A stretch of 64,000 nt of DNA from an uncultured Actinomycetota bacterium (GCA_963746465.1 CAVVAY010000013.1:10755-74754), one strand, 5' to 3'. Positions 15,623-47,728 are shown, numbered from the stretch's first letter. Made by a program: numbers and translations. The notes: a model not told the origin generated them from the sequence alone.

Positions 15623-15651
15623 AGGGGTTCTTCCTGTGGTGAGGCGAAGAG

Positions 15652-24424: not shown

Positions 24425-24525
24425 GGCGCGGGACGCTACCCGGTGCGAACCGCGCGGCCCGCACCGGCTGCCGGAAAGTCCTGCCGTACGCCTGAGCCGC
24501 CACCTAGGCTTCCCGGGACGAAAGG

Positions 24526-27500: not shown

Positions 27501-28215
27501 CGGTGACGGGGCCCGGCTGTTCGACGAGAACCACGCCCGGCTGATGGCCGCCGAGGGCCGCCATGCCGAGGCGCTGGCCGCCCTGGAGGCGGCGACGACG
27601 ATGCAGACCAGCGTGATCAACCCGGTGTGGCGGCCGTGGCGTTCCTACCGGGCGCCGGTGCTGGCCGCGCTCGGCCGGGTCGAGGAGGCCCGGGCACTGA
27701 TGGCCGAGGAGGTGAGGCTGGCCCGGCACTGGGGGGCGCCGTCGGTGCTCGGCCGCACGCTGCGCGGCGCCGGCGAGCTCGCCGCGGACGACGACGCCGA
27801 GCCGGTGCTGCGCGAGGCCTACCAGCTGCTCCGGCCCTCGGTAGCCCGCTACGAGCGGGCCTGCGCCGAGCTGGCGCTGGCCCGAGTGACCGGTGACCCG
27901 GCCGAGCGGACCGCGCTGCTCGGCAGCGCTCTCGCCCTGGCCGCCGAGTGCGGCTCACCGGGGCTGTACCGGCAGGTCGGCCACGAGCTGGCCTCCGACG
28001 GGGCGGAGGAACCCGCGCCGTTCGACGAGGTGGTGTCGCTGACCGCCACCGAGCGGCGGGTCGCCCAGCTCGCCGCGGCCGGCGCGGCACCCAGCGCGGT
28101 CGCCCAGGAGCTGTTCCTCACCCCCGCGGTGGTCGAGCACACCCTCGCCGAGGTCCGCCAGCGGCTCGGTGTGCAGACCGACGCCGAGCTCGGCGCCGCA
28201 CTGGCCCCCGCCTGA
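24526..28215 (+). CDS. Large transcriptional regulator: N-terminal SARP (OmpR-wHTH + BTAD), NB-ARC/AAA ATPase, TPR-like repeats, C-terminal LuxR/GerE HTH
   Basis: 1229 aa. N-terminus: RQRAVLALLVLARGDVVPADRLVDALWGD...YVSHLRK (SARP). Walker A: LIRGPAGIGKSRLL. Last 60 aa: LTATERRVAQLAAAG...VVEHTLAEVRQRLGV (LuxR-type HTH). Confidence 0.8.
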   Translation: MGVTVGSQQARVPGTRDAVDVVTEAGLRVGVLGQLVATRDGTSLELGGPRQRAVLALLVLARGDVVPADRLVDALWGDATPPSATSALQAYVSHLRKRMEPDRGPRDRDSVIARQGPGYALRVEDDSVDAWRFERLLRQAGGSDPATAQRLLEAALQLWRGPAYADHAGQTWVDGEVARLAGLREVAREQLLEARLGQGESAVLVPEIEGLVAEDPMREERWRLLVLALYRAHRQADALAALRRARSTLADELGVDPGPALRALEGEVLAQSPSLDAPARVVAEREPAPSVPGPRAGRGELRATPAAVMVGRDPEVRVLRGALADAVDGQGRLALIRGPAGIGKSRLLQEVRRHAEAEGALVLTARGSQLERAFAFGAVRQLFEGTLSDPARRVELLRGSASSASSVFGEIPSADPAERADGSFAVLHGLYWLTVNLAEQQPVVLAVDDVQWCDTGSLRALAFLLRRLEGLPVLIAATLRTGEVHEDEPLLAELAEDHATVQVHPGPLAPEATAELVRERLGAEAQEPFVAACHRTTGGNPLLLRQLLRALQVEGVRPDASHADTVNAIGSRAVSSMVLMRLARLPADCTAVGRAVSVLGDGCLLTDVAALSGLDESATAAALAALSRAEVLRSDDQLGFVHPLVRDAVYQALSSAERELHHERAAALLLARAATPEQVAAHLLLAPRRGSNDAVRVLRLAATTAAERGAADAASTYLERALAEPPEAAERPDILFELGHLGTMTDGPAALAHLREAYETVPDVAVRAEVATMLARTLVFAGGPGEATRFAREAAAALPDELDDARQGLHGLERIGGYMHGLPESEWGRGRLEVRGDGVGARMLAATLAWEELISNGDRLRCIELARFALAGGHLQRVDTGLLWVVSAFVQEMSEVDMGDFWDRTLADAFARGSLFSALSVHLWRGHMLWHRGQLREALRSVQTSNEQSEQWGAPDVGVPYGQAFSIGILLEQGEIAEARRYVDGVLHQSRIGDGARLFDENHARLMAAEGRHAEALAALEAATTMQTSVINPVWRPWRSYRAPVLAALGRVEEARALMAEEVRLARHWGAPSVLGRTLRGAGELAADDDAEPVLREAYQLLRPSVARYERACAELALARVTGDPAERTALLGSALALAAECGSPGLYRQVGHELASDGAEEPAPFDEVVSLTATERRVAQLAAAGAAPSAVAQELFLTPAVVEHTLAEVRQRLGVQTDAELGAALAPA

Positions 28216-30646: not shown

Positions 30647-31555
30647 TCAGACGAAACCCGGGACGTCGCGCCAGGCCTCCGGCTGCGGCTCGTCGTCGTC
30701 CCGGCCGACCGCGACCTCGATCAACCCGTAAGGCCGGTCGCCGGCGTTGAAGACCTCGCCCGGGTTCTCGAGGCCGAACGGGGAGAGGTCGACGAGGTAG
30801 TGGTGCTTGTTCGGCGCCGACATCCGCAGCTCGGCGACGTCCGCGCGAGCCTCGAGCACCGTGCGGCCCATCTCCCACAGCGTCTGCTGCAGAGCCAGGC
30901 TGTGCAGGCTGCCGAACCGCGAGACGAGCAGCGCCCGGACCTCGGCGTACGCCGCGTCGTAGCCGTCACTGGGGACTGCCGCCCACCGCCAGCGGGTGGT
31001 CAATGCGGTCGCGAGGACGCGGTCCGTGGTCGGCGGCAGCGTGGTGAGGTCGTCGACCAGGAAGTCCTTGAACTCCGAGCCGGTCGACTTCAGCAGCACG
31101 AGACCGGTCAGCCCGGACACCACGTGCTCGCCGCCGTCGTACGCCGTGACCACCGCCGTGCGGGTCTCTGCCCCGGTGCGCACGAAGGTGTGGTCGTGGG
31201 GGCGCCCGTCGACCGTCGCGCGCTCCCAGCCGTACTCCTCGACGACGACCTGGGCCGACGTCACCGGGCCGACGTCGTCGACGAAGTGCCGGGCCAGCTC
31301 CCGGGCGAACTCCTCCGCCGTGCCGACCCCGCGCTCCTTGGCGAACGCGTAGACGGAGTTCTTCTGGGTGTCCGTCGGCAGGATGTCGCGCTGGTCACCC
31401 TCGACGTGCGCGGCGGTGAACTCGCCACGCAAGGACGTCGACACGTTCAGGTCGCGGATCTCGTGCCGCGCGGTGTCCCGCACCACCCGCACCAGCCGCG
31501 TCTCCGCCTTGCCGTAGCGGTTGTCCCCGAGCACGATGCCGTTGGTAGCCACCAC
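30647..31555 (-). CDS. Urate oxidase (factor-independent uricase)
   Basis: 302 aa. Tandem T-fold. Motifs include NSxVxxTDTxKN-like (PTDTQKNSVY). GTG start is 1 nt after the HIU hydrolase stop. Confidence 0.85.
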   Translation of the reverse strand: MVATNGIVLGDNRYGKAETRLVRVVRDTARHEIRDLNVSTSLRGEFTAAHVEGDQRDILPTDTQKNSVYAFAKERGVGTAEEFARELARHFVDDVGPVTSAQVVVEEYGWERATVDGRPHDHTFVRTGAETRTAVVTAYDGGEHVVSGLTGLVLLKSTGSEFKDFLVDDLTTLPPTTDRVLATALTTRWRWAAVPSDGYDAAYAEVRALLVSRFGSLHSLALQQTLWEMGRTVLEARADVAELRMSAPNKHHYLVDLSPFGLENPGEVFNAGDRPYGLIEVAVGRDDDEPQPEAWRDVPGFV

Positions 31556-31556
31556 C

Positions 31557-31877
31557 TCAGCTCCCCCGGTAGGTCGAGTAGGCGTAGGGCGAGAGCAGCA
31601 GCGGCACGTGCAGGTGGCCGTCCGGGTCGTCGACGGTGAACGTCACGACGACCTCGGGGTAGAAGGTCTCGCGGCCCTGCGCGGCGAACCAGTCGCCGGT
31701 CGCGAAGACCACCCGGTAGGTGCCGCGGTCGAGCCGGTCCGGGCCGAGCCCGCGGACCCGGCCGTCGTCATCGGTGCGTGCCTCGACCGACAGGCCGCGG
31801 CCCTCGAGCCGCACCGCGACGCCGCGGGCCGGCAGGCCGCTGACGCTGTCCAGCACGTGGGTGGTGACCACGCTCAT
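31557..31877 (-). CDS. uraH: 5-hydroxyisourate hydrolase (transthyretin-like)
   Basis: 106 aa ending in YRGS, the diagnostic HIUase C-terminus. HVLD near the N-terminus. ATGA overlap with the upstream gene. Confidence 0.85.
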   Translation of the reverse strand: MSVVTTHVLDSVSGLPARGVAVRLEGRGLSVEARTDDDGRVRGLGPDRLDRGTYRVVFATGDWFAAQGRETFYPEVVVTFTVDDPDGHLHVPLLLSPYAYSTYRGS

Positions 31878-33589
31878 CGGGTCGGTCCTCCTTCGTCCAG
31901 CAGACGCTGCAGCCGCAGCCGGTTGATGCTGCCGAGCTCGGCGCGCACGACCGTGCGCTCGTGCACCGGGTCGTTGCCGAGCCGGGAGCGCAGCACGTCG
32001 AGCAGCTCGTCGCCGCTGCGGCCGCTGGCGCAGACCAGGTAGACGTGGCCGAACCGCTTCTCGTACTCGCGGTTGCCCTCGGCCAGCGCGGCCTTCACGT
32101 CGTCGCCGACACCGGCCTGCTCGCGTTGCGAGGAGGAGTGGGCCGACCGCTCGCCGATCCGGGGGTGGCCGGTCAGGGCGTCGTCGACGTCCTGCTCGGC
32201 GAGGACGCCGAGCGCACGTTCGGCTGCGGCGAGCAGCCGGTCGGCCGAGCCGTAGGGCGCGGCGGCGACGACCAGGTCGGCCCACCGCGGCGAGGCGCAC
32301 ACCGTCAGCAGGAGCTCGCGCAGCTCGGCCGCCGGCAACCTGTCCAGCCACGGGTTCGCGCCGTCGCGCCGGGCCAGCTGCCGAAGGGTGTCGCCGTCCG
32401 GGCCGCCGGCAGCCGCGACCTCGTCGGCGTCCAGCGCCCCGCAGTCCAGGCCGCGCAGCAGGAAGCCGGCGAGCGCGAACGCGGTGGCCGGCTCGTCGAG
32501 CACCCCGCCCGACTGGCGGTCCAGGTAGCTGCGCAGCCGGGCGACCGCGGCGGGCAGCCCCTCCCGGTAGAACGCGAACGTCGCGAGGTAGCGGGTCGGC
32601 AGCTGCGCGGGGTGCAGGTCCCAGCCCTGGTAGATGCCGCGCTCCAGCGAGCGCCGCACGAGGCGTGCGTGCAGGGCCCACGCCGTCTCGACGTGTGCCC
32701 GGTCCCCGAGCGGCAGCACGTTGGTCGACCCGTCGCTCACGCGCACCCCGGTCTGGGCAGCGGCCACCTGCATCACGGCTTTCGCGTGGTCGGCGACCGG
32801 GTGCTCCATCGACTGGTGCGCAGCGGCGACACCGAGCGAGGCGCTGTAGTCGTAGGTGCCGTAGTGCAGCCCGGTGCATCTGCCGCCCGCTGCGTGCACG
32901 ACGCGGGCGACGGTCGCCGTGCCGTCGGCACCGAGCACGGCCTGCGGCGTCTCGACCTGCACCTCGAAGCGCAGCGACGAGGGCGGCAGGCCGTGGGCGC
33001 CTTCGAGCCGCTCGCAGAGCAGCACCATGGCCTGCACCTGGTCGACCGAGGTGACCTTGGGCAGCGTGGTGACGAAGCCCGGCGGCGGTGCGCCGAGGAC
33101 GTCGAGCACCAGGTCCAGCGAGCGGACCCCGCGCCGCCGGTTGGGCGCCTCCAGCGACTTGATGCGGACGCCGCTCACGAAAGGTGCACCCGCGCCGACC
33201 AGCTTCGCGAGGACCTCGCCGGCGAGGCGGGCGTGGCGGTCCTCCTCGTCGTCCGGCCGGGCGCCGTAGCCGTCCTCGAGGTCCAGCCGCAGGTCCTCGA
33301 CCGGCTCGCGGGCCAGCTTCGCCAGCACCCGCGGCCACACCTCGTCCACCACGGCTGCGCCCAGTCCGGTGATCCGCGCCATCGACCCGGCGTCCTCGGC
33401 GGCCACCGCGTCCAACGCCTCGGCACCGACACGGTTCGCGAGGTCGGCCGCGGCCCGGTCGGCCGGCAGGTACAGGGTGTGCACCGGTTGCCGGCCTGAC
33501 GGCTCCCCCGGCCAGCCCTCGGTCAGCGCCGCGTCGGCGGGGGCGAGCAGCTCGTCGAGCTCGCGCAGGACGTCGTCGGGCAGGGTCAT
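31874..33589 (-). CDS. Fusion protein: N-terminal HpcH/HpaI-CitE-like (aldolase/citrate-lyase beta fold) domain + C-terminal OHCU decarboxylase
   Basis: 571 aa from MTLPDDVLRELDELL. N-terminal ~400 aa carries LDLEDGYG and TLPKV(T)S motifs, compare CitE/HpcH DLED and PKVES. C-terminal ~170 aa carries HPRIGER...S..EQ and the conserved YLVCASGRSG block of OHCU decarboxylase. No internal ATG or SD separates the two parts. Confidence 0.7.
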   Translation of the reverse strand: MTLPDDVLRELDELLAPADAALTEGWPGEPSGRQPVHTLYLPADRAAADLANRVGAEALDAVAAEDAGSMARITGLGAAVVDEVWPRVLAKLAREPVEDLRLDLEDGYGARPDDEEDRHARLAGEVLAKLVGAGAPFVSGVRIKSLEAPNRRRGVRSLDLVLDVLGAPPPGFVTTLPKVTSVDQVQAMVLLCERLEGAHGLPPSSLRFEVQVETPQAVLGADGTATVARVVHAAGGRCTGLHYGTYDYSASLGVAAAHQSMEHPVADHAKAVMQVAAAQTGVRVSDGSTNVLPLGDRAHVETAWALHARLVRRSLERGIYQGWDLHPAQLPTRYLATFAFYREGLPAAVARLRSYLDRQSGGVLDEPATAFALAGFLLRGLDCGALDADEVAAAGGPDGDTLRQLARRDGANPWLDRLPAAELRELLLTVCASPRWADLVVAAAPYGSADRLLAAAERALGVLAEQDVDDALTGHPRIGERSAHSSSQREQAGVGDDVKAALAEGNREYEKRFGHVYLVCASGRSGDELLDVLRSRLGNDPVHERTVVRAELGSINRLRLQRLLDEGGPTR

Positions 33590-34620
33590 CCGGTCGCTTC
33601 CCACCGGTCCCGCAGCGCGGACAGGCCGTCGTCGGTCGGACGGCCCCAGAGCCGCAGCCGGGCCATCCCGCCGTCCGGGTAGACGTCGAGCCGCACGTGG
33701 GTGGCCGGCGCCGACGGCTCGGGGAGAACGACCCGGTGCCGGGTGTCGGGCTGCAGCGCGGTGCGGTCGAGCAGCGGGAACCACGACTCGCGATCGGCCG
33801 GGTCACCTTCGCCGTCGTACGCGGACAGGGCCGCCGCACCGGGTGCGTTCCCGAGGAACCAGGTCGTGTCCAGCTCGACGACGCGCACCGTGCCGCGGGC
33901 AGCCAGCCGCACCTCTACCCAGTCGTTGCCGTCGTCGCGCCGCCGCGCGGTCTCCCACCCCTCCCCCATGGTGCGGGCCAGCCCCGGCGCGATGAGCCGG
34001 TCCGGCGACCCGTAGAACAGGTTGCTGCAGCCGGTGACCCGTCCACCGAGCTCGAGCGCGGCGAGGTCGACGGTGCCGAGCGCCTCGACCGGCCGCGGGT
34101 CGGCGACGACCTGGCCGTGCACCCGTAGCCGCGCCACCCCGCCGTCCGGGTGGATGGTCAGGCGCACGTGGGTCCAGCGGCTCTCCGACGAGACCGGGAA
34201 GACGTTCGCGGTGTCGCCCTGCAGCGCCGAGCGTTCGACCAGCGTCGTCCACTCGGCCGCACGCAGGGCGGCCACGGCCGGGTGGCCGTCGACGGCCAGA
34301 CCTTCTACCGAGGCCTCGCTCGGGAAGTTGCCGGTGAAGTGGCTGGTGTCCACGACCACGGCGCGCACCACGCCAGGTGCCCCGAGCCGCACGATCGCCT
34401 CGTCACGTCCGGGTTCGCGCCGCCGCCGGGTCTCCCAGCCGTCGTAGACCTGGCCCTTGGCACCGAACGTCCGTGGCGTGAACGCGGCCGGCCCGGGGTT
34501 GATCAGGTTCTCCCGCCCTGCGAACAGCTCGTCGTTGGCCCACACCACCGCGCCGCCGAACGTCCGCACCGCGAGGTCCGGCAGGGCCAGCAGGTCCTGG
34601 GTGGTCGCCTCCTGGGCCAT
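33586..34620 (-). CDS. alc: Allantoicase
   Basis: 344 aa with two allantoicase repeats (VVWANDELFAGRENLINP..., GCSNLFYGSPDRLI...). Confidence 0.85.
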   Translation of the reverse strand: MAQEATTQDLLALPDLAVRTFGGAVVWANDELFAGRENLINPGPAAFTPRTFGAKGQVYDGWETRRRREPGRDEAIVRLGAPGVVRAVVVDTSHFTGNFPSEASVEGLAVDGHPAVAALRAAEWTTLVERSALQGDTANVFPVSSESRWTHVRLTIHPDGGVARLRVHGQVVADPRPVEALGTVDLAALELGGRVTGCSNLFYGSPDRLIAPGLARTMGEGWETARRRDDGNDWVEVRLAARGTVRVVELDTTWFLGNAPGAAALSAYDGEGDPADRESWFPLLDRTALQPDTRHRVVLPEPSAPATHVRLDVYPDGGMARLRLWGRPTDDGLSALRDRWEATG

Positions 34621-35912
34621 CACGCCTCCCCTCTCGCCAGCAGCCGTCCGGTCGCCGGACCCGGTCGGTCCGCGCCGATCGGCGTCCCAGCCAACCATGT
34701 CCTTCGCACGACACCGGTGAGCCGCGCACCGGCGTACGGCGACACCGGGTTGCGGTGGTGCAGCAGCGCCGGGTCGACCACCTGCTCGGCGTCCGGGTCG
34801 AACGCGACGAGGTCGGCCGCCGCGCCGGCCCTGATCCCGCCCTTGGTGCTCAGACCTACCAGGGCGGCCGGTGCCGACGACATCCAGCGCACCACGTCGG
34901 CGAGCGGGTGACCGCGCCGGCGTCCCTCGGTCCACACCAGGGCGAGCCCCAGCTGCAGCGAGGAGATGCCGCCCCAGGCGGTGCCGAAGTCGCCGGTGTC
35001 CAGGTGCTTGAGGTCGGCGGTGCACGGCGAGTGGTCGCTGACGACGAGGTCGATGGTGCCGGCGGCCAGGCCGGCCCAGAGCGCCTCCCGGTTGGCCTCG
35101 TCCCGGACCGGCGGGCAGCACTTGTACGACGTCGCCCCGTCCGGCACGTCCTCGGCGCGCAGCACCAGGTAGTGCGGGCAGGTCTCGACCGTCACCCGAA
35201 CACCGTCGGCCTTCGCGGCCGCAAGCGCCGGCAGCGCCGCCGCGCTGGACAGGTGCACGACGTGCAGCCTCGCCCCGGTCCGGCGCGCCGCGTCGATGAC
35301 GCCGTCGATGGCGCGGTCCTCGGCACTGTGCGGGCGGGACGCGAGAAACCTCCGGTACGCCGGGCCGGCCGGCGGCGGTGCCGCGGCGAGGACGGCCGGG
35401 TCCTCGGCGTGCACCAGCAGCAGCCCGTCGGCCGCCGCCACCTCCTCGGCCGCGGCGAGCAGCCCGGCCGGCGGGAGCGCGGGGAACTCCTCGACGCCGG
35501 AGTCGGGCAGGAAGCACTTGACGCCCATCACGCCGGCGTCGAGCAGAGCGCCCAGCCGGCCGAGGTTGCCGGGCACGGCGCCGCCCCAGAAGCCGACGTC
35601 GACCAGGCACTGGCCCTCGGCGGCCGCGCGCTTGACCGCCAGCGACTCGGGGTCAAGCGTCGGCGGCAGGCTGTTGAGCGGCATGTCCACGATCGTCGTC
35701 ACGCCGCCGGCCGCCGCGGCGCGGGTCGCCGAGGCGAACCCCTCCCACTCGGTACGGCCCGGCTCGTTCACGTGCACGTGCGTGTCCACCAGCCCGGGCA
35801 GCAGGAGGACGTCGTCCCCGAGGTCGACCACCTGGCAGCCCGCTCCGCCGCTGGCCGACCGGTCCAGCGGCCCGACCTCGGAGATCACACCGCCCGTGAC
35901 TGTGACGGTCAC
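34620..35912 (-). CDS. allB: Allantoinase (cyclic amidohydrolase)
   Basis: 430 aa from GTG ([16 protein letters not shown]...) preceded by a GGAGG SD. Metal ligands [23 protein letters not shown]..., DHSP. Confidence 0.8.
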
Positions 35913-35926
35913 TGCCTCCTCCCCCG

Positions 35927-35970
35927 CACCTATAGCCCTGCTAGCGGCACCGCTAGCAGGGCTATAGGTG
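35927..35970. repeat. Perfect 44-bp palindrome (21-bp arms, 2-nt centre), locally AT-rich, between xdh Mo-subunit stop and allantoinase start
   Basis: CACCTATAGCCCTGCTAGCGG-CA-CCGCTAGCAGGGCTATAGGTG; every arm position pairs. TATAG/CTAGC tracts stand out in a ~70% GC background. No T-tract follows on either strand. Confidence 0.7.
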
Positions 35971-36064
35971 GTGGAGAGATCACCGTCGCCATCAGCGCCG
36001 CGGACGGGAGGTGGCAGCACGGCACGGGCGGCGTGCACGACGAGGTCGGGCCGGGCCGATCGGG

Positions 36065-38356
36065 TCACGCGGTGCCGGTGATGTGCTCGGGACGGATCGG
36101 CACCCTGCTGAGGAACTGACCCGTCGCCGCGCGGACCGCGGCCAGTACCGCCGGGCCGGAGGAGATCGTGGGCGGCTCGCCGACGCCACGCAGCCCGTAC
36201 GGCGCGTGCGGGTCCGGCAGCTCGAGCACCTCGACCGTCATCGGCGGCATGTCGAGGATGGTGGGGATCAGGTAGTCGGTGAACGACGGGTTGCGGATGA
36301 TGCCGTCCGTGACGACGACCTCCTCCATCAGGGCCAGCCCGAGGCCCTGCGCGCTGCCGCCGTGGATCTGACCGACGACCGCCTGCGGGTTGACGGCCTT
36401 GCCGACGTCCTGGGTGCAGGCCAGCTCGACGACCTTGACCAGGCCCAGCTCGACGTCCACGTCGACGACGGCGCGGTGGGCGGCGAACGCGTACTGGACG
36501 TGCGCGTTGCCCTGCCCGGTCGAGGGATCGACGGCCTCGGTCGGGCGGTGCCGCCACTCGACGGTCTCCTCGACCGCTTCGTCGCCCAGCGCGCGCACCA
36601 GGGTCTGGGAGTCGACCTCGTCCCAGGACGACATCCCCGCCAGGACCAGCACCCGGTCGCGCACCCGCAGGCAGGCCTCGCGCACCGCGCCGCCGGTCAC
36701 GTAGGTCTGCCGGGACGCCGACGACGAGCCACCACTGCCCACCGCGGTGTCGGCCGGTGCGACCACGACCCGCTCGACACCGAGCTCGGTGCGTGCGATC
36801 TGCTGCTGCACCGTGACCAGGCCCTGGCCCACCTCGGCGGCGGCGGTGTGCACGGTGACCACCGGCTCGCCGCCGGACACCTCCAGCCGCACCCGGGCGG
36901 TCGAGTAGTCGTCGAAACCTTCGGAGAAGCCGATGTTCTTGTAGGCCACCGCGTAGCCGATGCCCCGGCGTACGCCCTCGCCATGGGTGGAGTTGGCCAC
37001 CCCGCCGGGCAGCCGGCGCAGGTCCTCGCCGACCCGGTCCGGCGGCAGCGGCATCGCCTCCAGACGGCGCAGCAGGTCCGCCACCGGGGCGGGGCTGTCG
37101 ACCACCTGCCCGGTCGGGGCGATCGAGCCCTCCTCCATGGCGTTGCGGCAGCGCAGCTCGACCGGGTCGATGCCGAGCGCGGCGGCCGCCTTGTCCATCT
37201 GCGACTCGTAGGCGAAGGCCGCCTGGACCGCGCCGAAGCCACGCATCGCGCCGCACGGAGGGTTGTTCGTGTAGGCGCCGTAGCAGTCCATGTGCACGTT
37301 CGGCACGACGTAGGGCCCGATGCCCATCAGCCCGGCGTTGCCCACGACCGCTGCGCTGCTCGACGCGTACGCCCCGCCGTCCAGCCAGATCGTGGCGCGG
37401 ACGTAGACCAGGTCGCCGTCCCGGGTGAACCCGTGCTCGTAGTGCAGCTCAGCGGGGTGCCGGTGCACGTGGCCGAAGAACGACTCCTCACGGTTGTACG
37501 ACATCTTCACCGGCTTGCCGGTGTGCATCGCCAGCAGGCAGGCGTGCACGTGCATCGAGAGGTCCTCGCGCCCGCCGAACGCGCCGCCGACGCCGGCGAG
37601 AGTGAGACGCACCTTCTCCGGCGGGAGGCCGAGAGCGCCGCAGATCTGCTGCTGGTCCACGTGCAGCCACTGGGTGGCGACGTAGAGGTCGACGCCGCCG
37701 TCCTCGGCCGGCACGGCGAGACCGGACTCCGGGCCGAGGAAGGCCTGGTCCTGCATGCCGACCTCGTAGTCGCCCTCGACGACGACGTCCGCGGTGGCGT
37801 CGGCGTCGCCCTTGCGGATCTTCAGGTGCCGGATCAGGTTGCCGTGCGGGTGCAGCGGAGCGGCCTCCCGGCTGCGCTCCACCACGGGAGTCGGCTCGGG
37901 GTGCACGTCGCGGGCCGCGTGCCCCAGCGCGACCCGGGCGTCGGTGACCGGCTCGAGCTCCTCGTAGTCGACGACGATCCGGGCAGCGGCCCGCCGGGCC
38001 GTCTCCGGGTGCTCGGCCGCGACCAGCGCGACCGGCTCGCCCTGGTAGCGCACGACGTCCATCGCCAGCACCGGCTGGTCCTGGAACTCCAGCCCGTACC
38101 GCTTGGCGCCGGGCACGTCGTCGGCGGTGAGCACGGCGTAGACGCCGGGCACGGCCAACGCCGGCCCGAGGTCGATGGACCTGATCCGAGCGGCCGGGTG
38201 CGGGCTGCGCAGCGTGACGCCCCAGAGCATCTCGTCGGCCCACAGGTCGCTGCCGTAGGCGAACTCACCGGTGACCTTCAGGGTGCCGTCCGGCCGGGCG
38301 GCGTCGGTACCGACCCCGCCGTCGGTGCGGACCGGCGTGCTGACCGGTGCCGTCAT
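36065..38356 (-). CDS. Xanthine dehydrogenase family, molybdopterin-binding large subunit (CoxL/XdhB-like)
   Basis: 763 aa. Aldehyde-oxidase/xanthine-DH a/b-hammerhead plus MoCo domains ([16 protein letters not shown], catalytic region GVGEPP). Confidence 0.85.
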
Positions 38357-39723
38357 CGAGAGCTCCTCTCGAGCAGGCGACGGGACGCCGACGCCGCGTC
38401 CCGCGCCAGCTGCTCCTCGACCACCGTGACCAGGCGGTCCCGCTCGACCACCGCGCGGCCGTCGACCAGCAGCAGCTCGAGCGGCGGTGCCGAGCCGAGC
38501 GCCAGTGCCGCGACCGGGTCGGCGATGCCCGCGTGCGGCAGCGTGTCGACACGCCACAGCGCCAGGTCGGCCAGCTTGCCGACCTCGATCGACCCGATGT
38601 CGTCGGCCCGGCCGAGAACCTGGGCGCCGCCGTAGGTCGCCAGCCGCAAGGCCTCGCGGACCGACAGCGCGGTCGGCCCGCCGCGGGCGCGGGCGAACAA
38701 CGCCGCGTGCCGCAGCTCCTCCAGCAGCGAGCCCGCTTCGTTGGACGCCGCACCGTCGACCCCCAGCCCGACCGGCACGCCGGCGTCGACGAGGTCCCGG
38801 GTCCGGGCGATGCCGGCGCCCAGCCGGGCGTTGCTCGAGGGGCAGTGCGCGACGCCGGTGCCGGTGTCGGCGAACCGGGCCACCGCCGCGTCGTCGAGGT
38901 GCACGGCGTGCGCCATCCAGACGTCCGGGCCGAGCCAGCCCAGCGAGTCGACGTACTCGGTGGGGGTCGCACCGAACCGTTCGGCGCAGAACGACTCCTC
39001 GTCGACGGTCTCGGCGAGGTGGGTGTGCAGCCGCACGCCGTGCCGGCGGGCCAGGTCGGCCGCCTCGGTCATCAGCTTCGCGGTCACCGAGAACGGCGAG
39101 CAGGGCGCCACCGCCACCCGCAGCATCGAGTCCGACGACGGGTCGTGGAACCGGCTGATCGCCGACTCGGTGGCATCCAGGACGGCGTCCAGGTCCTCGA
39201 CCACGGAGTCGGGCGGCAACCCGCCCTGGCTGGCACCGAGGTCCATCGACCCGCGGGTGGGGTGGAAGCGCAGCCCGACCGCAGAGGCTGCGCCGATCTC
39301 GGCCGCGAGCAGGTCGCCGCCGCCGGCCGGGAACACGTAGTGGTGGTCGGTGCTCGTGGTGCAGCCGGTGCGCGCCAGCCAGCCGAGCGCCGCGGTGGAC
39401 GCGGCGCGTACGACCTCCTCGTCGATGCCCGCCCAGACCGGGTACAGCTCGGTGAGCCACTCGAACAGCGTCGCGTCGACGGCCAGCCCACGGGTGGCCC
39501 ACTGGTAGAGGTGCTGATGGGTGTTGACCAAGCCCGGTGTGAGCAGGCAGCCGGTCCCGTCGAGCACGCGGTCAGCGGCCAGGCGTACGTCGTCGGCTGC
39601 AGGTCCGGGGCCCACCGCGGTGACCCGGTTGCCCTCGACCACGACATGGCCGGCCGGGTGCTCTGTCCCGGCGGCGTCGACCGTGCAGACCGTCGCGCCC
39701 TCGATCAGGAGCACGTCGCTCAC
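38353..39723 (-). CDS. Amidohydrolase, guanine / 8-oxoguanine deaminase-like
   Basis: 456 aa from GTG. Metal-dependent hydrolase motifs: PGLVNTHQHLYQ, HTHLAET, HAVHL, D..G. Start and stop overlap the flanking xdh genes (GTGA / ATGA). Confidence 0.75.
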   Translation of the reverse strand: MSDVLLIEGATVCTVDAAGTEHPAGHVVVEGNRVTAVGPGPAADDVRLAADRVLDGTGCLLTPGLVNTHQHLYQWATRGLAVDATLFEWLTELYPVWAGIDEEVVRAASTAALGWLARTGCTTSTDHHYVFPAGGGDLLAAEIGAASAVGLRFHPTRGSMDLGASQGGLPPDSVVEDLDAVLDATESAISRFHDPSSDSMLRVAVAPCSPFSVTAKLMTEAADLARRHGVRLHTHLAETVDEESFCAERFGATPTEYVDSLGWLGPDVWMAHAVHLDDAAVARFADTGTGVAHCPSSNARLGAGIARTRDLVDAGVPVGLGVDGAASNEAGSLLEELRHAALFARARGGPTALSVREALRLATYGGAQVLGRADDIGSIEVGKLADLALWRVDTLPHAGIADPVAALALGSAPPLELLLVDGRAVVERDRLVTVVEEQLARDAASASRRLLERSSR

Positions 39724-40196
39724 GCCCGCATCCGATCGGCCGCCAGCCGGACCGCGTCGAGGATCTTCTCGTAGCCGGTGCAGCGGCACAGGTTGCCGGC
39801 GAGCGCCTCGCGGACCGTGTCGTCGTCCGGCGACGGCACCCGCTGCAGCAGGTCGTGCACCGCGACGACCAGGCCGGGCGTGCAGAAGCCGCACTGCACG
39901 GCGCCGGTCTCCAGGAAGGCGGTCTGCACCGGGTGCAGCCGCTCGGCCGCCTCGTCGTCGGCCAGGCCCTCCACCGTGACGACCTCGCGGCCCTCGGCCT
40001 GACCCGCCGCCACCAGGCAGGCGCACACGACGTCACCGTCGAGGTAGACCGAGCACGAGCCGCACTCGCCCTGCTCGCAGGCGTTCTTCGATCCCGGCAG
40101 TCCGAGCCGCTCACGGAGCAGGTAGAGCAGGCTCTCGCCCTCCCACACGTCGTCGGCCTGCCGGCGCTCGCCGTTGACCGTGAGCTCCACCCTCAT
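39720..40196 (-). CDS. (2Fe-2S)-binding small subunit of xanthine dehydrogenase (CoxS-like)
   Basis: 158 aa with CEQGECGSC and CGFCTPG...CRCTGY cysteine motifs. Confidence 0.85.
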
Positions 40197-41071
40197 CAGG
40201 CCGCCTCCCGCCGGTAGTCCTGCCAGGCCCAGCCCAGCGTGCGCCGGGCCAGCACCGAGAGCGCGTGCCGCCGGTACGCCGCCGTGCCCCGGACGTCGTC
40301 GATCGGTGACGCGTCGGCGGCGACCAGGTCGCCGAACCGGGTCGCGACGGCGTCGGGGACGTCGTCGCGCGACTCCCAGAGGCCGTCGTCAGCGAGCGCG
40401 GCCGCGAGGAACTCCTCGGCGGTGCGCGCATGCCGCGGGGTCGGTGCCGCCGAGCCGATCGCCGCGCCGACCGCCCGCCGCTGCGGGTGCAGCGCCAGCC
40501 CGAAGGACGTCACAGCGATCACCATCGCGTTGCGGGTGCCGATCTTGGCGAACTGCTGGGGCCCAGCCACCGGTGGCAGCAGGACGGCGGCGATCAGCTC
40601 GTCCGGCTCCAGCGCACTCTTCTTGACGCCGGTGAAGAAGTCGGCCACCGGCACCTGTCGCACTCCGCGCACCGACTCGACCTCGACCACGGCGTCGACC
40701 GCGAGCAGGACGGGGTGCGCGTCGCCGGCCGGCGAGGCCGAGCCCAGGTTGCCGCCGACCGTGCCGCGCACCCGGATCTGCGGGGACCCCACGGTCCGCG
40801 ACGCCATCGCCAGCCCCGGTGCTTGCGCGGCCAGCTCGGTCATCACCCGGGCGAAGGTCACGCCGGCGCCCAGCCGGATGCCGCCGTCCTCTGCGCGCGA
40901 CCACTCGCGCAGCTCCTCGACCCGGGTCAGGTCGATCAGGACGTCCGGCCGGTGCCGGTCGAAGTTGAGCTCGACCATCACGTCGGTGCCGCCGGCGATG
41001 GGCACCGCACCGGGATGCTCGCTGCGCGCGGCCAGCGCGTCGGCCCACGTGCTCGGCGCGAGGAACTCCAC
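40196..41071 (-). CDS. FAD-binding medium subunit of xanthine dehydrogenase (CoxM-like)
   Basis: About 291 aa. FAD_binding_5 (PIAGGTDVMVELNF) and CO-dehydrogenase flavoprotein C-terminal domain. Start approximate (GTG in VGVEFLAP). Confidence 0.75.
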   Translation of the reverse strand: MEFLAPSTWADALAARSEHPGAVPIAGGTDVMVELNFDRHRPDVLIDLTRVEELREWSRAEDGGIRLGAGVTFARVMTELAAQAPGLAMASRTVGSPQIRVRGTVGGNLGSASPAGDAHPVLLAVDAVVEVESVRGVRQVPVADFFTGVKKSALEPDELIAAVLLPPVAGPQQFAKIGTRNAMVIAVTSFGLALHPQRRAVGAAIGSAAPTPRHARTAEEFLAAALADDGLWESRDDVPDAVATRFGDLVAADASPIDDVRGTAAYRRHALSVLARRTLGWAWQDYRREAA

Positions 41072-41121
41072 TCCGACGACCCCTTCCCTCGGTGGGAGTG
41101 AACATAGGGCGTCCGGAGCGG

Positions 41122-42072
41122 TCAGGCGAGGCGGGCATGCAGCCGGACGACCGTCCCGGCGGCGCCGGACCTGATCTGCACCAGGTCGCACAGCTGGTTG
41201 GCCAGCCACACCCCGCGACCGCCCATCCGGTCCACCGACGGGTGCTCGCGGCCGATCAGCGGGTCGGCGATGGTCCCGCTGTCGGACACCTCGCAGACCA
41301 GCGCCGAGGCCTCCCGCCAGAGCCGCAGCACACCAGCCCCACCGCCGTGCATCAGGCTGTTCGCCGCGATCTCGTCGACGCACAGCACCAGGTCCTCGGT
41401 CTCAGCCGACGGCATGCCGTGCTCGGCGCAGGTGCGCTGCACCAGCCGGCGTACCGCGCCCAGCTCCCCGGTCCCGAAGGCCAGCTCGACCGGGGCCCCG
41501 CCCGGCGGCGGCAACGGCCGGTGCCGCAGCGCGCGACGCGGCCGCTCCGGTCGGTAGCGGTCACTGGACGACCAGGTGCCGGCGTCCAGCACCATCGGGT
41601 GGTTCGCCCGGGCCTCCTCGATGACCTCGCCCGGCAGCGCGGTGACGTCGTACGGGCAGAGCAGCCGCCAGGCCGGACCGCCCTCGAACGCCAGGTTCAG
41701 CAGCGACTCGTGCTGGTGGCACTCGGCCAGCTCCGCCTCGCTGCGGCCGGCCCAGATCGGCTCGCCCAGCCCCCGGACCGAGCGACCGGCGGCGAGGTTC
41801 CTCGCGAGGAAGTCCCGCCACACCGGAATGATCCGCGCCGGGTTCGCACCCACCTCGGCCATGTCGACGATCTGCACGCCGGGCACACCGAGGAACAGCG
41901 ACCGCAGGGCGGCGAGCCGCTCACCGCCGGTGGCGACCAGCACGGCCTCGTCGCGCTCGATGCCCTCCCGGAGGAAACCGCAGACCTCTTCCAGGAACTC
42001 GGGCAGCGAGGAGTACAGGAAGGCCTCGTGCGAGAACTCGTCGACACGGTCGACCGTCGAGGCACTGGTCAC
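41122..42072 (-). CDS. MEDS-domain protein fused to HATPase_c (RsbW-like anti-sigma-factor/Ser-kinase module)
   Basis: 316 aa from GTG. N-terminal HEAFLYSS...VLVATGG...CPYD pattern fits the MEDS domain. C-terminal [20 protein letters not shown]...[10 protein letters not shown] fits a GHKL ATPase. Ends 50 bp upstream of the xdh operon. Confidence 0.6.
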
Positions 42073-42204
42073 CGGGTCACCGTACGCCGGATCGACGATC
42101 CCCGTCGTACGACCGCAAACGCGGACCAACTGCCCTTGACCGGGCAACGACCTGCTCCCTAGGGTCGCGCAGCAGGAGAGACCTCCACATGCGGGAGGAC
42201 AGGT

Positions 42205-43407
42205 GTGACCGCAGCGTCGCGGCTGACCGTGGTCGTCGCCCCCGACTCGTTCAAAGGGAGCCTCCCTGCGCACGAGGTGGCGGCGGCGGTCGAGACCGGC
42301 CTGCGCTCGGCGGCCGCCGGCTCCGGGGCGGAGCTCGAGATACGCCGGCACCCGGTGGCCGACGGCGGCGAGGGCACCGTGGACGTCCTGCTGGCCGCCG
42401 GCTGGCGACGCCGCGAACGCACGGTGGCAGGCCCCACCGGCGAGCCGGTCCGCGCCGCGTTCGCCCTGTCGCCCGACGGTGCCGGGACGCTCACGGCGGT
42501 CGTGGAGCTCGCGGCGGCGTCCGGGCTCACTCTGCTGCCCGGCGCGACCCCGGACCCGCGCAACGCGGGCACGCACGGCACCGGCGAGCTGATCGCGGCC
42601 GCGCTGGAGGAGGGTGTCGCACGCCTGGTGCTCGGCATCGGCGGCAGCGCGACGACCGACGGCGGTGCCGGGATGGCCGCGGCTCTCGGCGTCCGCCTGC
42701 TGGACGGCAGCGACCGGCCGCTCCCGGCCGGCGGCGCGGCGCTGACCGGGCTGGCCCGGATCGACACCTCACGCCTGGACCGGCGGCTGGCCGGCACGGA
42801 GGTCGTCGTCGCCTGCGACGTCGACAACCCGTTGACCGGTCCGACAGGGGCCGCCGCGGTGTACGGACCGCAGAAGGGCGCGACTGCCGCCGACGTCACC
42901 GTGCTCGACGCCGGGCTGGCCCGCCTGGCGCAGCTGCTGCACCGAGACCACGACATCGACGTCGACCGGATTCCCGGCGCGGGCGCCGCAGGTGGTGTGG
43001 GGGCAGGTGCGGTGGCCTTCCTCGGCGCCCGCCTCACACCCGGCATCGACCTGCTGCTCGACCTCGTCGGCTTCGACCAGGCGCTGGTCGGCGCCCACCT
43101 CGTGATCACCGGCGAGGGCTCCTTCGACCACCAGTCGCTGGCCGGCAAGGCACCGGTGGGAGTCGCGCGCCGGGCTCGCGCCGCCGGCGTGCCGGTCGTG
43201 GTGCTGGCCGGGCGGGTCGACCTGGACGCCGCCGACCGGGCCCGGCTCGCCGACCTCGGGATCATCAGCACCTGTGCGCTGCTCGACCTGGAGCCGGACC
43301 CCGCTCTCGCGATGGCGCGGCCCGGCCCGTTGCTGGGCGAGCTCGCGGCCCGGGCGTTCCACGCCCTCCCCACCAGGTCGAGCGCGCAACCGAGAGGAGC
43401 AGCATGA
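42205..43407 (+). CDS. Glycerate kinase
   Basis: 400 aa. Motifs [32 protein letters not shown]. Its stop overlaps the malate synthase ATG (ATGA). Confidence 0.85.
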
Positions 43408-44999
43408 CCGACAGCAGCGTCCGGATCGACGGACCGATGAAGGACCGGTACGACGAGGTCCTGACCGATGAGGCGCTCGCCTTCCTGGCCGACCTGCACC
43501 GCCGCTTCGACGCCCGACGCCGTGAGCTGCTGGCCCTGCGGGACCAGCGGTACGCCGAGCTGGCCGCCGGCGAAATGCTCGACTTCCTTCCCGAGACCAA
43601 GGACGTCCGCGAGGACGACAGCTGGCGGGTCGCCCCGCCTGCTCCCGGTCTGGTCGACCGGCGGGCCGAGATCACCGGCCCGACCGACCGCAAGATGACC
43701 ATCAACGCGCTCAACTCCGGTGCCCGGGTGTGGCTGGCCGACCTCGAGGATGCCAACACCCCGCTGTGGGAGAACCTGGTCGAGGGACAGCTGAACCTGC
43801 GCGACGCGATCGACCGGCAGATCGACTTCAGCTCGCCCGAAGGCAAGTCCTACGCACTTGCCGACGACGTCGCGACCATCGTGGTCCGGCCGCGTGGCTG
43901 GCACCTGCCGGAGAAGCACATCCTGGTCGACGATCAGCGGACCTCCGGCAGCCTCACCGACTTCGGCCTCTACTTCTTCCACTGCGCGCAGCGCCAGCTC
44001 GACAACGGGCTCGGGCCGTACTTCTACCTGCCGAAGATGGAGAGCCACCTCGAGGCCCGGCTGTGGAACGACGTCTTCGTGCACGCGCAGGACGCTCTGG
44101 GCATCCCGCAGGGGACGATCCGGGCCACCGTGCTGATCGAGACCTATCCGGCCGCCTTCGAGATGGAGGAGATCCTCTACGAGCTGCGTGACCACTCGGC
44201 CGGCCTGAACGCGGGCCGCTGGGACTACATGTTCTCGGTCATCAAGAAGTTCCGCACTCGCGGCGAGGACTTCCTGCTGCCGGACCGCAACGCAGTGACC
44301 ATGACGGTGCCGTTCATGCGGGCCTACACCGAGCTGCTGGTGCGCACCTGCCACAAGCGCGGCGCGCACGCGATCGGCGGGATGGCCGCGTTCATCCCGA
44401 GCAAGGACGAGGAGACGAACAGGGCCGCGTTCGAGAAGGTCCGCGACGACAAGACCCGGGAGGCCGGCGACGGGTTCGACGGGTCCTGGGTGGCCCACCC
44501 GGCGATGGTGCCCCTGTGCACCGAGGTGTTCGACGCGGTGCTCGGCGACCGGCCCAACCAGGTCGACCGGACCCGGGACGAGGTGCAGGTCAGCGCCGAG
44601 CAGCTGCTCGACGTGAAGAGCACGCCCGGCGCGGTCACCGAGGGCGGCCTGCGGTCCAACATCAGCGTCGGCGTGCAGTACCTCGAGGCCTGGCTGCGCG
44701 GCTCGGGCGCGGTCGGCATCAACAACATGATGGAGGACGCCGCCACCGCGGAGATCTCGCGGTCGCAGGTGTGGCAGTGGCTGCACAACGACATCCGGCT
44801 GGACAACGGCGAGACCGTCACCCGTGACCTGGTGGAGCGCCTGATCGAGGAGGAGGTCGGGACCATCCGGTCGAAGGTAGGCGACGAGGCGTTCGCGAAG
44901 GGGCGGTGGGAGGACGCACGCGGGTTGTTCACCGAGATGGCGCTGTCCGAGGACTTCGAGGACTTCCTGACCATCCCGGCGTACGAGCGCATGCCCTAG
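43404..44999 (+). CDS. aceB: Malate synthase A
   Basis: 531 aa. Motifs [32 protein letters not shown]. Confidence 0.9.
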
Positions 45000-45009
45000 G
45001 GCGCAGGCC

Positions 45010-46476: not shown

Positions 46477-46477
46477 C

Positions 46478-47725: not shown

Positions 47726-47728
47726 CAC

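What the first reader, a model, noticed from the sequence alone, without database searches (positions are those of the whole stretch)
35927..35970. Perfect 44-bp AT-rich palindrome between xanthine dehydrogenase and allantoinase genes
The sequence CACCTATAGCCCTGCTAGCGG-CA-CCGCTAGCAGGGCTATAGGTG has 21-bp perfectly complementary arms and sits in the ~150-bp spacer between the xdh Mo-subunit stop (36065) and the allantoinase GTG (35912). Perfect arms of this length do not arise by chance. TATAG/CTAGC tracts are conspicuous in a ~70% GC genome. No U-tract follows, so it is not a canonical intrinsic terminator.

- It could be an operator for a dimeric purine/allantoin regulator (AllR/PucR/GntR-type; none is encoded adjacent). 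That would split the purine cluster into xdh and all transcription units.
- It could be an mRNA processing/stability hairpin.
- It could be a copy of a genome-wide REP-like element.

The arms are too long for a typical operator, which favours an RNA structure or a mobile palindromic repeat.
Basis: seen in the sequence. Interest (0 to 1): 0.55.

Follow-up and report, generated by a model that had tools for sequence, protein, structure and literature searches.

The report
REP-like hairpin repeat embedded inside allantoinase gene
The perfect 44-bp palindrome is real, but it is not in a spacer between genes: it is one copy of a dispersed family of small hairpin repeats (REP-like, "GTAG"-tagged) that sits in frame inside the start of the allantoinase gene, where it most likely encodes a floppy surface loop.

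Summary
The palindrome at 35927-35970 is exact: 21-nt arms, a 2-nt centre, unique in the window and far beyond chance.

The "150-bp spacer" is almost certainly coding.
- On the minus strand a GTG at 36068 overlaps the xdh stop codon (GTGA).
- The frame from that GTG stays open into allantoinase (allB).
- The first 19 codons match the N-terminus of allantoinases that lack the palindrome.
- Relative to the closest relative (90% identical), the window has a net +78-nt in-frame insert that contains the palindrome.

The same allB site is occupied in nine other uncultured soil actinomycete lineages. The copies are variant, duplicated or decayed. One more locus carries a deletion scar. All insert lengths are multiples of 3, and the palindromy is kept through compensatory changes.

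The same ~40-44-nt element (consensus CCTGTAGCSCTGC-hairpin-GCAGSGCTACAGG) occurs at about 15 unrelated loci. Most are just 3' of housekeeping genes, and two supply a TAG stop codon.

The best reading is a GTAG-type REP-like repeat fixed in frame in allB. A purine operator and a canonical terminator are rejected. An added RNA-hairpin role is possible but untested. No transposase was found. This is a new member of a known kind, of moderate-to-low interest.

The parts
35927..35970 (.). 44-bp perfect palindrome. It is one copy of a dispersed REP-like hairpin family. The window copy carries ATAG/CTAT in place of the family's GTAG/CTAC in both arms.
   Evidence: Searches give the sequence, its uniqueness and the chance test. 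Searches give the family alignment and covariation. In one search the covariance model R1 scores it 65.7 bits (E = 8e-17), while the next hit in the window scores 13 bits. As RNA the 44-mer folds at -40.3 kcal/mol.
35925..36011 (-). Lineage-specific in-frame insert in allB: 29 codons ([29 protein letters not shown]) where the closest relative has 3 (APA). Net gain is 26 codons, or 78 nt. It contains the palindrome plus about 40 nt of 5' flank and 2 nt of 3' flank.
   Evidence: Only one of the three frames through the window's element is free of stop codons, and that is the frame in use. In the AlphaFold2 model residues 27-46 have pLDDT below 50 and lie between strand 9-17 and strand 50-58.
36012..36068 (-). 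Probable true 5' end of allB. The GTG start at 36068-36066 overlaps the xdh TGA (GTGA). The segment encodes [19 protein letters not shown], the conserved first beta strand.
   Evidence: The same GTGA overlap is seen in L003, L004, L038, L040 and L041. In the 13 N-terminal codons, synonymous differences outnumber non-synonymous ones in element-bearing loci. This strand has pLDDT of about 95 in the model.
34620..36068 (-). Full allantoinase (allB) coding sequence as re-annotated here: 482 aa including the insert.
   Evidence: Pfam Amidohydro_1/3. PDB allantoinases 3hm7, 8hfd and 3e74 match at E = 1e-88 to 1e-75, aligning from query residue 52-55 onward. AlphaFold2 gives mean pLDDT 90.6 and pTM 0.91.
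35910..35924 (-). It is mostly ancestral coding sequence (G-E-E/Q-A-V).
   Evidence: Relatives without the insert have GGGGAGCAGGCGGTGACC at the same place. In the predicted RNA fold it pairs with CUCUCC on the other side of the palindrome.
35890..36007 (-). Extended imperfect hairpin: 58-nt arms, 72% complementary, with the perfect palindrome at its centre.
   Evidence: repeat I1.: -96.4 kcal/mol for 35900-36075, z = -4.4; 21 of 37 flank positions are complementary, P about 0.001 against random window positions. Orthologous loci show only 14-16 of 37.
36065..36067 (-). Stop codon (TGA) of the xanthine dehydrogenase Mo-subunit gene.
   Evidence: The C-terminus ...[13 protein letters not shown] matches L001 and L002.

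Best explanation
The palindrome is one copy of a family of 40-44-nt hairpin repeats. The family resembles GTAG-tagged repetitive extragenic palindromes (REPs). Its consensus is (CA)CCTGTAGC-S-CTGC, then a 5-bp variable stem, a 2-4-nt loop and the complementary arm.

Shown:
- A copy sits in the loop-coding stretch between the first and second beta strands of allantoinase, about 20 codons into allB.
- The same site is occupied across a clade of uncultured soil actinomycetes (one relative is labelled Sporichthyaceae).
- The reading frame is kept in every lineage sampled.
- The palindromy is kept through paired changes in the two arms.

Inferred:
- The element is translated from the GTG at 36068, which is coupled to the xdh stop, as part of a longer and probably disordered surface loop of a functional AllB.
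- The family spreads as a single-stranded DNA hairpin, moved in trans by an HUH tyrosine transposase of the RAYT / IS200-IS605 kind. That enzyme would read the GTAG tag at the foot of the stem.
- The window copy has ATAG in both arms and is probably an immobilised fossil.
- In the xdh-allB mRNA the element forms a hairpin of about -40 kcal/mol. Ribosomes must unwind it, and it may incidentally slow allB translation or protect upstream xdh mRNA.
For: (1) The element lies inside the coding sequence.
- The frame is open from GTG 36068 through the palindrome into allB.
- The N-terminal [13 protein letters not shown] is homologous to allantoinases that lack the insert.
- In those 13 codons synonymous differences dominate: 3 synonymous to 0 non-synonymous against L005, 5:1 against L002, 3:2 against L003 and 3:2 against L004.
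- Eight different insert lengths (+6, 27, 39, 42, 45, 72, 78, 141 nt) across ten occupied or scarred loci are all multiples of 3, and none has a stop codon.
- AlphaFold2 gives mean pLDDT 90.6, a confident strand at residues 9-17, and low confidence only in residues 27-46.
- PDB allantoinases align from residue 52-55 onward.

(2) It belongs to a dispersed family.
- A metagenome scan found 16 contigs, 14 of them distinct. All have different flanks and none is at allB. L034 matches the window element over its 40-nt core except for G in place of A in the tag.
- MAG CAWBMM01 carries the element both at allB and at the 3' end of a hutI-like gene on another contig.
- Contig L024 carries two different copies 5.2 kb apart.

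(3) Position is REP-like.
- Copies lie between ORFs, mostly just 3' of hisI, pirin, ftsQ, yceI, glyA and sseB.
- In L019 and L037 the element's TAG is the stop codon of the upstream ORF. Di Nocera et al. 2013 (PMC3733652) describe this trait for GTAG REPs.

(4) The hairpin is conserved.
- Across 21 copies, 92.4% of cells pair, against 21-45% when the partner is slid. Nine of 20 pairs show changes on both sides.
- Across the 10 copies at the allB site, 90.5% of cells pair and 10 of 20 pairs show double changes.

(5) The subfamily tracks the genome. The allB and hutI copies of the same MAG share the CCCACT inner stem. L040 (allB) and L028, L034 and L035 come from the same soil sample and share the GCTAGCGG inner stem.

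(6) The family fits the published REP search rule: GTAG 0-2 nt from a fully paired 7-20-nt stem, with a 2-5-nt loop (PMC6006769).
Against: - No Y1/HUH transposase gene was found. Only ten ORFs next to copies, plus twenty window ORFs, were scanned. Mobility and its mechanism are therefore inferred.
- Copy number looks low where it can be seen. There is one copy in the 64-kb window. There are none outside allB in about 60 kb of allB-bearing relatives. Classical REP families have tens to thousands of copies per genome.
- The window copy lacks the GTAG tag.
- The arms are identical (42 of 42 nt) between the window and L005, although their allB genes are only 60% identical at fourfold sites. Simple neutral decay of a dead element does not explain this. 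It points to constraint or homogenisation that has not been identified.
- There is no direct evidence on which start codon is used. Several public gene calls start at the internal GTG.
Confidence: 0.78

Rival explanations
1. The element is an exapted cis-regulatory hairpin. Whatever its origin, selection would maintain the palindrome at the allB site as an RNA or DNA structure that tunes expression within the xdh-allB operon. It could pause or gate ribosomes entering allB. It could mask the internal Shine-Dalgarno and GTG so that a short isoform is made only when the hairpin is open. It could also act as a 3'-exonuclease barrier or processing site that stabilises upstream xdh mRNA. This could be true in addition to the REP origin.
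For: - The window and L005 arms are identical at 42 of 42 nt, against 60% identity at 258 fourfold sites. That gives P = 7e-10 at the neutral rate and 4e-4 at the mean coding-sequence rate.
- Palindromy is kept at the orthologous site with 10 of 20 pairs doubly changed. Even the strongly diverged L042 copy still pairs at 19 of 22 positions.
- In the window the hairpin extends into the flanks and pairs with GGAGGAGG.
- REPs are credited with roles in mRNA stabilisation and termination (PMC3733652 background).
Against: - The closest relative (L001, 90% identical) lacks the element entirely. L038 has deleted it, leaving a scar. L039 and the second L002 copy are decaying.
- The flank extension that masks the Shine-Dalgarno-like motif is not conserved in orthologous loci: 14-16 of 37 positions, against a random mean of 11.
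- Arms can be kept complementary by template-switch correction of quasi-palindromes, without any selection (general knowledge).
- Sequence identity could come from homogenisation with other family copies.
- There are no expression data.
Confidence: 0.15
2. The insertion cut off the old N-terminus, allB is now translated from GTG 35912 using the GGAGGAGG motif, and the upstream 152 nt is a transcribed but untranslated spacer that carries a REP.
For: - A strong Shine-Dalgarno-like GGGGGAGGAGG lies 2-5 nt upstream of GTG 35912.
- Public gene callers chose the equivalent internal start in P0002, P0004, P0006, P0012, P0015, P0017 and P0020.
- The insert has rare codons (ATA, AGG, TAT, CCT, GCT). 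GC3 counted by hand from the sequence is about 0.6 for the 15 insert codons 5' of the palindrome, against about 0.95 in the body of the gene.
Against: - The upstream frame is open and in phase in all ten insert-bearing or scarred loci. Eight distinct indel lengths are all multiples of 3, about (1/3)^7 by chance.
- The upstream 13 codons evolve mostly by synonymous change.
- The GGAG-like motif is ancestral coding sequence and is also present where there is no insert.
- The first strand is part of the predicted fold at pLDDT of about 95.
- The GTGA start/stop overlap with xdh is conserved.
Confidence: 0.1
3. The palindrome is an operator for a dimeric purine/allantoin regulator (AllR, PucR or GntR type) that splits the cluster into xdh and all transcription units.
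For: It is a perfect dyad inside a purine-catabolism cluster.
Against: - The same element lies next to unrelated housekeeping genes, usually at their 3' ends.
- The window copy is inside a coding sequence that is translationally coupled to xdh.
- No promoter-like site was found.
- The closest relative has the same operon without the element.
- 21-nt arms are far longer than typical operator half-sites.
Confidence: 0.02

Closest known systems
GTAG-tagged REPs and their RAYT / TnpA-REP transposases (E. coli, Pseudomonas, Stenotrophomonas; Di Nocera 2013 PMC3733652; Nunvar 2010 PMC2817692; Quentin 2018 PMC6006769)
   Same: - A short G+C-rich stem-loop with GTAG at the foot of the stem.
- A constant outer part and a covarying inner stem.
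- Dispersed copies, mostly just downstream of genes.
- The TAG of the tag sometimes serves as a stop codon.
- Occasional intragenic copies, tandem copies and clusters.
   Different: - Here GTAG is itself paired with CTAC on the other arm, so both strands read GTAG plus hairpin. The element is a fully symmetric unit.
- The host is an uncultured actinomycete. Di Nocera's 2013 survey listed GTAG repeats in Proteobacteria, Cyanobacteria, Chloroflexi and the PVC superphylum, not in Actinobacteria.
- Visible copy density is low.
- No RAYT gene was found.
- The window copy has ATAG.
Rickettsia palindromic elements (RPEs), which insert in frame within protein-coding genes (Ogata et al., as cited in PMC3733652)
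   Same: A palindromic repeat inserted in frame in a gene that stays open and apparently functional. The extra peptide sits in a surface loop.
   Different: RPE-1 elements are described as longer palindromic insertions and belong to unrelated sequence families in Rickettsia. Here the element is 44 nt, in a free-living high-G+C actinomycete. A single site has been retained and remodelled across a clade.
REPINs (REP doublets forming hairpins; Bertels and Rainey 2011, cited in PMC3733652)
   Same: A symmetric hairpin unit built from two inverted tag-bearing halves. Within-genome subfamilies look like evolving populations.
   Different: In REPINs two separate REPs, each with its own small palindrome, are spaced apart. 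Here the two halves are simply the two arms of one stem.
Hairpin-only ('I-shaped', no U-tract) intrinsic terminators reported for high-G+C actinobacteria (recalled from my own knowledge, not checked in the literature tools)
   Same: A strong G+C-rich hairpin without a T-tract, often just after stop codons.
   Different: The 13 outer bases are identical across unrelated loci, which indicates homology rather than convergent terminators. The window copy is inside a coding sequence, where termination would truncate allB.

Membership tests
REP (GTAG-tagged, RAYT-associated) | Short palindromic stem-loop: a fully paired basal stem of 7-20 nt and a loop of 2-5 nt | tested here: met
   The stem is 20-21 bp with a 2-4-nt loop. 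The pairing is conserved with covariation across 21 copies.
REP (GTAG-tagged, RAYT-associated) | GTAG (or GTGG) tetranucleotide 0-2 nt 5' of the stem: family consensus | tested here: met
   In the family alignment, 19 of 21 copies read GTAG at positions 6-9 of the left arm. The exceptions are the window and L005 (ATAG); L003 reads ATCG. GTAG lies immediately 5' of the CCCTGC... stem. Unlike classical REPs, the tag is paired with CTAC on the other arm.
REP (GTAG-tagged, RAYT-associated) | GTAG tetranucleotide: the window copy itself | tested here: not met
   The window, and the orthologous L005, read ATAG/CTAT in both arms.
REP (GTAG-tagged, RAYT-associated) | Many dispersed copies within one genome | tested here: inconclusive
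   Two loci in MAG CAWBMM01 and two copies on the 5.9-kb contig L024. Only one copy in the 64-kb window. The source genome was not available, and the single genome-wide scan used an over-strict pattern.
REP (GTAG-tagged, RAYT-associated) | Predominantly extragenic, near the 3' ends of genes | tested here: met
   Metagenomic copies lie between ORFs, mostly 28-60 nt after stop codons or overlapping them. The window copy is an intragenic exception.
REP (GTAG-tagged, RAYT-associated) | A cognate Y1/HUH transposase gene (RAYT) flanked by the repeats | tested here: inconclusive
   None was found among the ten ORFs adjacent to copies or the twenty window ORFs scanned. Whole genomes could not be searched.
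Rickettsia palindromic elements (RPE) | In-frame insertion in a protein-coding gene that remains open | tested here: met
Rickettsia palindromic elements (RPE) | Sequence homology to, and size of, the RPE families of Rickettsia | not tested
   No RPE sequences were compared. The 44-nt size and the actinomycete host make membership implausible, so the resemblance is functional only.
Operator of a purine/allantoin regulator (AllR, PucR, GntR type) | Lies in a promoter region and is restricted to the regulon's genes | tested here: not met
   The window copy is inside a coding sequence. No promoter-like site was found. Other copies lie beside hisI, ftsQ/Z, glyA, yceI, pirin and sseB.
Canonical intrinsic terminator | G+C-rich hairpin followed by a T/U tract | tested here: not met
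   No terminator-like site in 35500-36500. The sequence after the stem is GCGGGGGAGG.
Any curated RNA family (Rfam 15) | A match at or near the gathering score | tested here: not met
   Only sub-threshold generic hairpin (miRNA precursor) hits, 18-27 bits against gathering scores of 57-200.

The most novel reading that the evidence does not exclude
The REP-derived hairpin has been captured as a functional part of the xdh-allB operon. Selection, not only palindrome self-correction or family homogenisation, would keep it perfect across lineages whose synonymous sites are near saturation. It would act in the mRNA to gate translation of allB, or to choose between a long and a short AllB isoform by masking the internal Shine-Dalgarno and GTG. 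More broadly, it would mark a GTAG-hairpin repeat family in Actinomycetota whose mobilising enzyme is unknown.
Probability: 0.12. Interest if true: 0.6.

Novelty: new member of a known kind. Interest (0 to 1): 0.35.

Why it matters
- Annotation. The allB start should be GTG 36068, overlapping the xdh stop, not 35912. There is no xdh|all intergenic operator region. Public gene calls for this clade are inconsistent (425-500 aa) for the same reason.
- REP biology. This is an example of a GTAG-tagged hairpin repeat family in uncultured soil Actinomycetota, a phylum not listed for GTAG repeats in the 2013 survey. It includes a clear case of an intragenic, in-frame copy that has been retained and remodelled through duplication, decay, a deletion scar and compensatory changes across a clade.
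- Open question. The copy is conserved well above the synonymous-site background (42 of 42 nt). That is a small, testable case of selfish persistence versus exaptation.

Tried and rejected
- Chance or artefact: rejected. The same element is present in independent assemblies.
- Other copies in the window: none. This held for arm searches with up to 3 mismatches, a relaxed motif, and the covariance model with filters off.
- Rfam: only sub-threshold generic hairpin hits.
- Promoter and terminator scan: nothing.
- Exact look-up of the window's AllB: not on record, so the source genome is not in the collection.
- Genome-contig scan with CACCTRTAGCN{20,28}GCTAYAGGTG: too strict in hindsight, because most family copies lack the outermost CA/TG on one side. 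It found only MAG CAWBMM01 (two loci) plus 14 unrelated palindromes in unrelated phyla. I take those as chance, because a palindrome needs only 10 specified bases to match.
- BLAST of the consensus 44-mer against PLSDB plasmids: no match.
- RAYT/Y1 transposase search in ORFs next to ten copies and in twenty window ORFs: none.
- Literature on an AllR operator in Streptomyces: nothing usable in the open-access library. The operator idea was dropped on distribution grounds.
- 'RAYT' + 'Actinobacteria' paper search: uninformative, because the word-start matching picked up unrelated words.
- DNA for P0002, the closest element-bearing candidate (90% identical, with a 140-nt 'spacer'): could not be fetched.

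Full report
**1. The observation**

The sequence CACCTATAGCCCTGCTAGCGG-CA-CCGCTAGCAGGGCTATAGGTG lies at 35927-35970, with 21-nt perfectly complementary arms. None of 100 dinucleotide-preserving shuffles gave a match to the arm within 3 mismatches. The next-best perfect short-loop palindrome in the 64-kb window has 11-nt arms. As RNA the 44-mer folds at -40.3 kcal/mol. Its G+C content is 61%, against 72.5% for the window, so it is 'AT-rich' only relatively. No T-tract terminator or sigma-70-like promoter lies nearby, and there is no Rfam family match.

**2. The 'spacer' is coding**

Genes here run on the minus strand. From high to low coordinates they are the xdh subunits, allantoinase, allantoicase, a DUF6986/OHCU-decarboxylase fusion, and uricase.

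- Read on the minus strand, a GTG at 36068-36066 overlaps the xdh TGA at 36067-36065, giving GTGA.
- The frame from that GTG is open through the palindrome into the amidohydrolase body of allB. The translation is [60 protein letters not shown]....
- The closest homologue (P0001 in L001, 90% identical) starts [35 protein letters not shown].
- The window therefore keeps the conserved first strand upstream of the palindrome. It carries a net +78-nt (26-codon) in-frame insert between ...AVLP and GE(E/Q)AVTVTV.
- The GGAGGAGG 'ribosome-binding site' before GTG 35912 is mostly ancestral coding sequence. Relatives without the insert have GGGGAGCAGGCG-GTG at the same place.

An AlphaFold2 model of the 482-aa protein has mean pLDDT 90.6. 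It places strand 9-17 at about pLDDT 95 and strand 50-58 confidently. Only residues 27-46, which lie in the insert, fall below 50. Solved allantoinases (3hm7, 8hfd, 3e74) align from residue 52-55 onward.

**3. The same site in relatives**

N-termini of 120 homologues show that this loop is length-variable, and many carry inserts. I read DNA for eleven orthologous junctions.

| Locus | State of the allB site |
|---|---|
| L005 | Same arms as the window (42 of 42 nt); centre TA instead of TG |
| L040 | Same inner stem, GTAG tag, two mismatches in one arm |
| L041, L003 | GATAGC/GCTATC, a compensatory change relative to GCTAGC |
| L004 | One mismatch |
| L002 | Two tandem copies with a CCCACT inner stem |
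| L042 | Strongly diverged but still 19 of 22 positions palindromic |
| L039 | Decayed, 15 of 22 |
| L038 | 36-nt deletion leaving the ...ACAGG end |
| L001 | Empty |

- In every case the frame from the N-terminal strand to VTVTV is open.
- The eight distinct extra lengths (+6, 27, 39, 42, 45, 72, 78, 141 nt) are all multiples of 3.
- In the 13 upstream codons, synonymous differences outnumber non-synonymous ones.
- Only one of the three frames through the window's element lacks a stop codon, and it is the frame in use.
- Together these argue that the region is translated.
- At this site 90.5% of cells pair, and 10 of 20 pairs show changes on both sides.

**4. It is a dispersed family**

- A metagenome scan with ACCTRTAGCSCTGCN{10,18}GCAGSGCTA returned 16 contigs. 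Fourteen are distinct, because L024/L031 and L022/L036 overlap. All have different flanks, and none is at allB.
- Six share the window's inner stem. Over its 40-nt core, L034 equals the window element except for G instead of A in the tag.
- The genome scan found the element at two loci of one MAG (uncultured Actinomycetota MFD02159.bin.2.90): at allB, and at the 3' end of a hutI-like gene.
- Contig L024 has two different copies 5.2 kb apart.
- Copies lie between ORFs, mostly just 3' of housekeeping genes (hisI, pirin, ftsQ before ftsZ, yceI, glyA, sseB).
- In L019 and L037 the element's TAG is the stop codon of the upstream ORF.
- Across 21 copies the outer CCTGTAGCSCTGC is essentially invariant, and the inner 5 bp covary. 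Pairing is 92.4%, against 21-45% when slid, with 9 of 20 pairs doubly changed.
- A covariance model built from them finds a single copy in the window (65.7 bits; next hit 13 bits). It finds nothing beyond the allB site in about 60 kb of allB-bearing relatives.

**5. Comparison with known systems**

The family fits the operational definition of GTAG REPs: the tag lies 0-2 nt from a fully paired 7-20-nt stem, with a loop of 2-5 nt (PMC6006769). It also shares their habits. Published GTAG REPs sit just downstream of genes, supply TAG stops, and occasionally occur as intragenic or clustered copies (PMC3733652).

Differences:
- The tag is paired on both sides, so the unit is fully symmetric.
- The host phylum was not listed for GTAG repeats in 2013.
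- Visible copy density is low.
- No RAYT gene was found in the little flanking sequence available.
- The window copy reads ATAG.

In-frame residence in a gene works like the Rickettsia palindromic elements, without being one.

**6. Mechanism**

Shown:
- family membership;
- intragenic in-frame position;
- conservation of pairing;
- persistence and remodelling at one site.

Inferred:
- spread as single-stranded hairpin DNA by a GTAG-reading HUH transposase;
- immobilisation of the ATAG copy;
- translation into a disordered loop;
- incidental effects of a -40 kcal/mol hairpin on the polycistronic mRNA.

**7. What remains unexplained**

- The window and L005 arms are identical at 42 of 42 positions, although their allB genes are 83% identical in protein and only 60% identical at 258 fourfold sites. 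That gives P = 7e-10 at the neutral rate and 4e-4 at the mean coding-sequence rate.
- Template-switch correction can keep arms complementary, but it does not hold their sequence fixed.
- The remaining candidates are constraint (a function, or recognition by a family-specific protein) or homogenisation with other copies. The second is hinted at because a genome's allB copy matches that genome's or sample's other copies.
- In the window only, complementarity extends into the flanks (21 of 37, P about 0.001) and pairs with the internal GGAGGAGG.

**8. Verdict**

The gene model behind it is wrong. This is a new member of a known kind, of moderate-to-low interest.

Noticed in passing
L005 1-52: There are five tandem copies of the octamer CGTGACCC at the xdh stop / allB start junction. 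Each carries a GTGA start/stop overlap. Only the last GTG (position 44) is in frame with allB; the earlier ones run into TGA after three codons.
   Followed up: partly
L019 249-500 (MAG CAWBMM01, contig_75650): Two tandem element copies, one degenerate, sit at the 3' end of a hutI-like amidohydrolase gene. They are flanked on both sides by copies of the gene's last ~15 codons (HLGGRP.RATVVGGALV), which differ by synonymous changes. The element's TAG ends the current ORF. The origin of this duplicated 3' end is unexplained.
   Followed up: partly
L022 1-60 and L036 1-60: An array of the octamer CCCTGTAG (3-4 copies), followed by a degenerate element, lies directly beside an intact element next to hisI.
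   Followed up: no
Proteins P0128, P0014, P0022, P0008, P0040, P0086 (same allB loop): Other lineages carry different inserts in the same loop. P0128 has two copies of a YCPAGNSGG.AAG repeat, which looks like another palindrome in translation. P0008 has a Gly/Ser-rich low-complexity run. The loop appears to be a hot spot or a long-lived, rapidly remodelled insert.
   Followed up: partly
Public gene calls for allB homologues (P0002, P0004, P0006, P0012, P0015, P0017, P0020 versus P0010, P0013 and others): Gene callers disagree on the allB start in this clade, giving 425-430 aa from the internal GTG against 445-500 aa from the upstream start. The element-containing 5' region is therefore often mis-annotated as intergenic.
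   Followed up: yes
Genome-contig hits L006, L008-L011, L014, L016, L018, L020, L021: Ten of the 14 unrelated hits are themselves near-perfect palindromes with the same 10-nt ends (CACCTATAGC...GCTATAGGTG). They come from Saccharibacteria, Yonathbacteria, cyanobacteria, Sphingomonadaceae, Akkermansia, Ktedonospora, Pseudomonas and others. I take them as chance, because a palindrome needs only half the specified bases, but this was not tested.
   Followed up: no
window 14001-16750: This stretch has lower G+C (0.65-0.69) and a strongly negative AT skew (-0.22). It encodes an ABC-transporter ATPase and a periplasmic sugar-binding protein on the minus strand.
   Followed up: no
window 24508-28215 (+) and 41122-42576 (-): There is a 1235-aa SARP/AfsR-like regulator (Trans_reg_C + BTAD + AAA_16 + GerE). 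A MEDS + HATPase_c_2 protein lies immediately upstream of the xdh genes, and the latter is conserved in that position in L039. These are the nearest regulator candidates for the purine cluster.
   Followed up: no
window 30647-49141: The cluster joins purine and ureide catabolism to glyoxylate and glycolate handling. The first group is uricase, DUF6986/OHCU decarboxylase, allantoicase, allantoinase, xdh and a guanine-deaminase-like amidohydrolase. The second is malate synthase, FAD-linked oxidase, an Fe-S/CCG subunit and a lactate permease. In L001 and L039 the amidohydrolase and xdh Mo subunit (plus Fer2 in L039) are called as one fused ORF.
   Followed up: no
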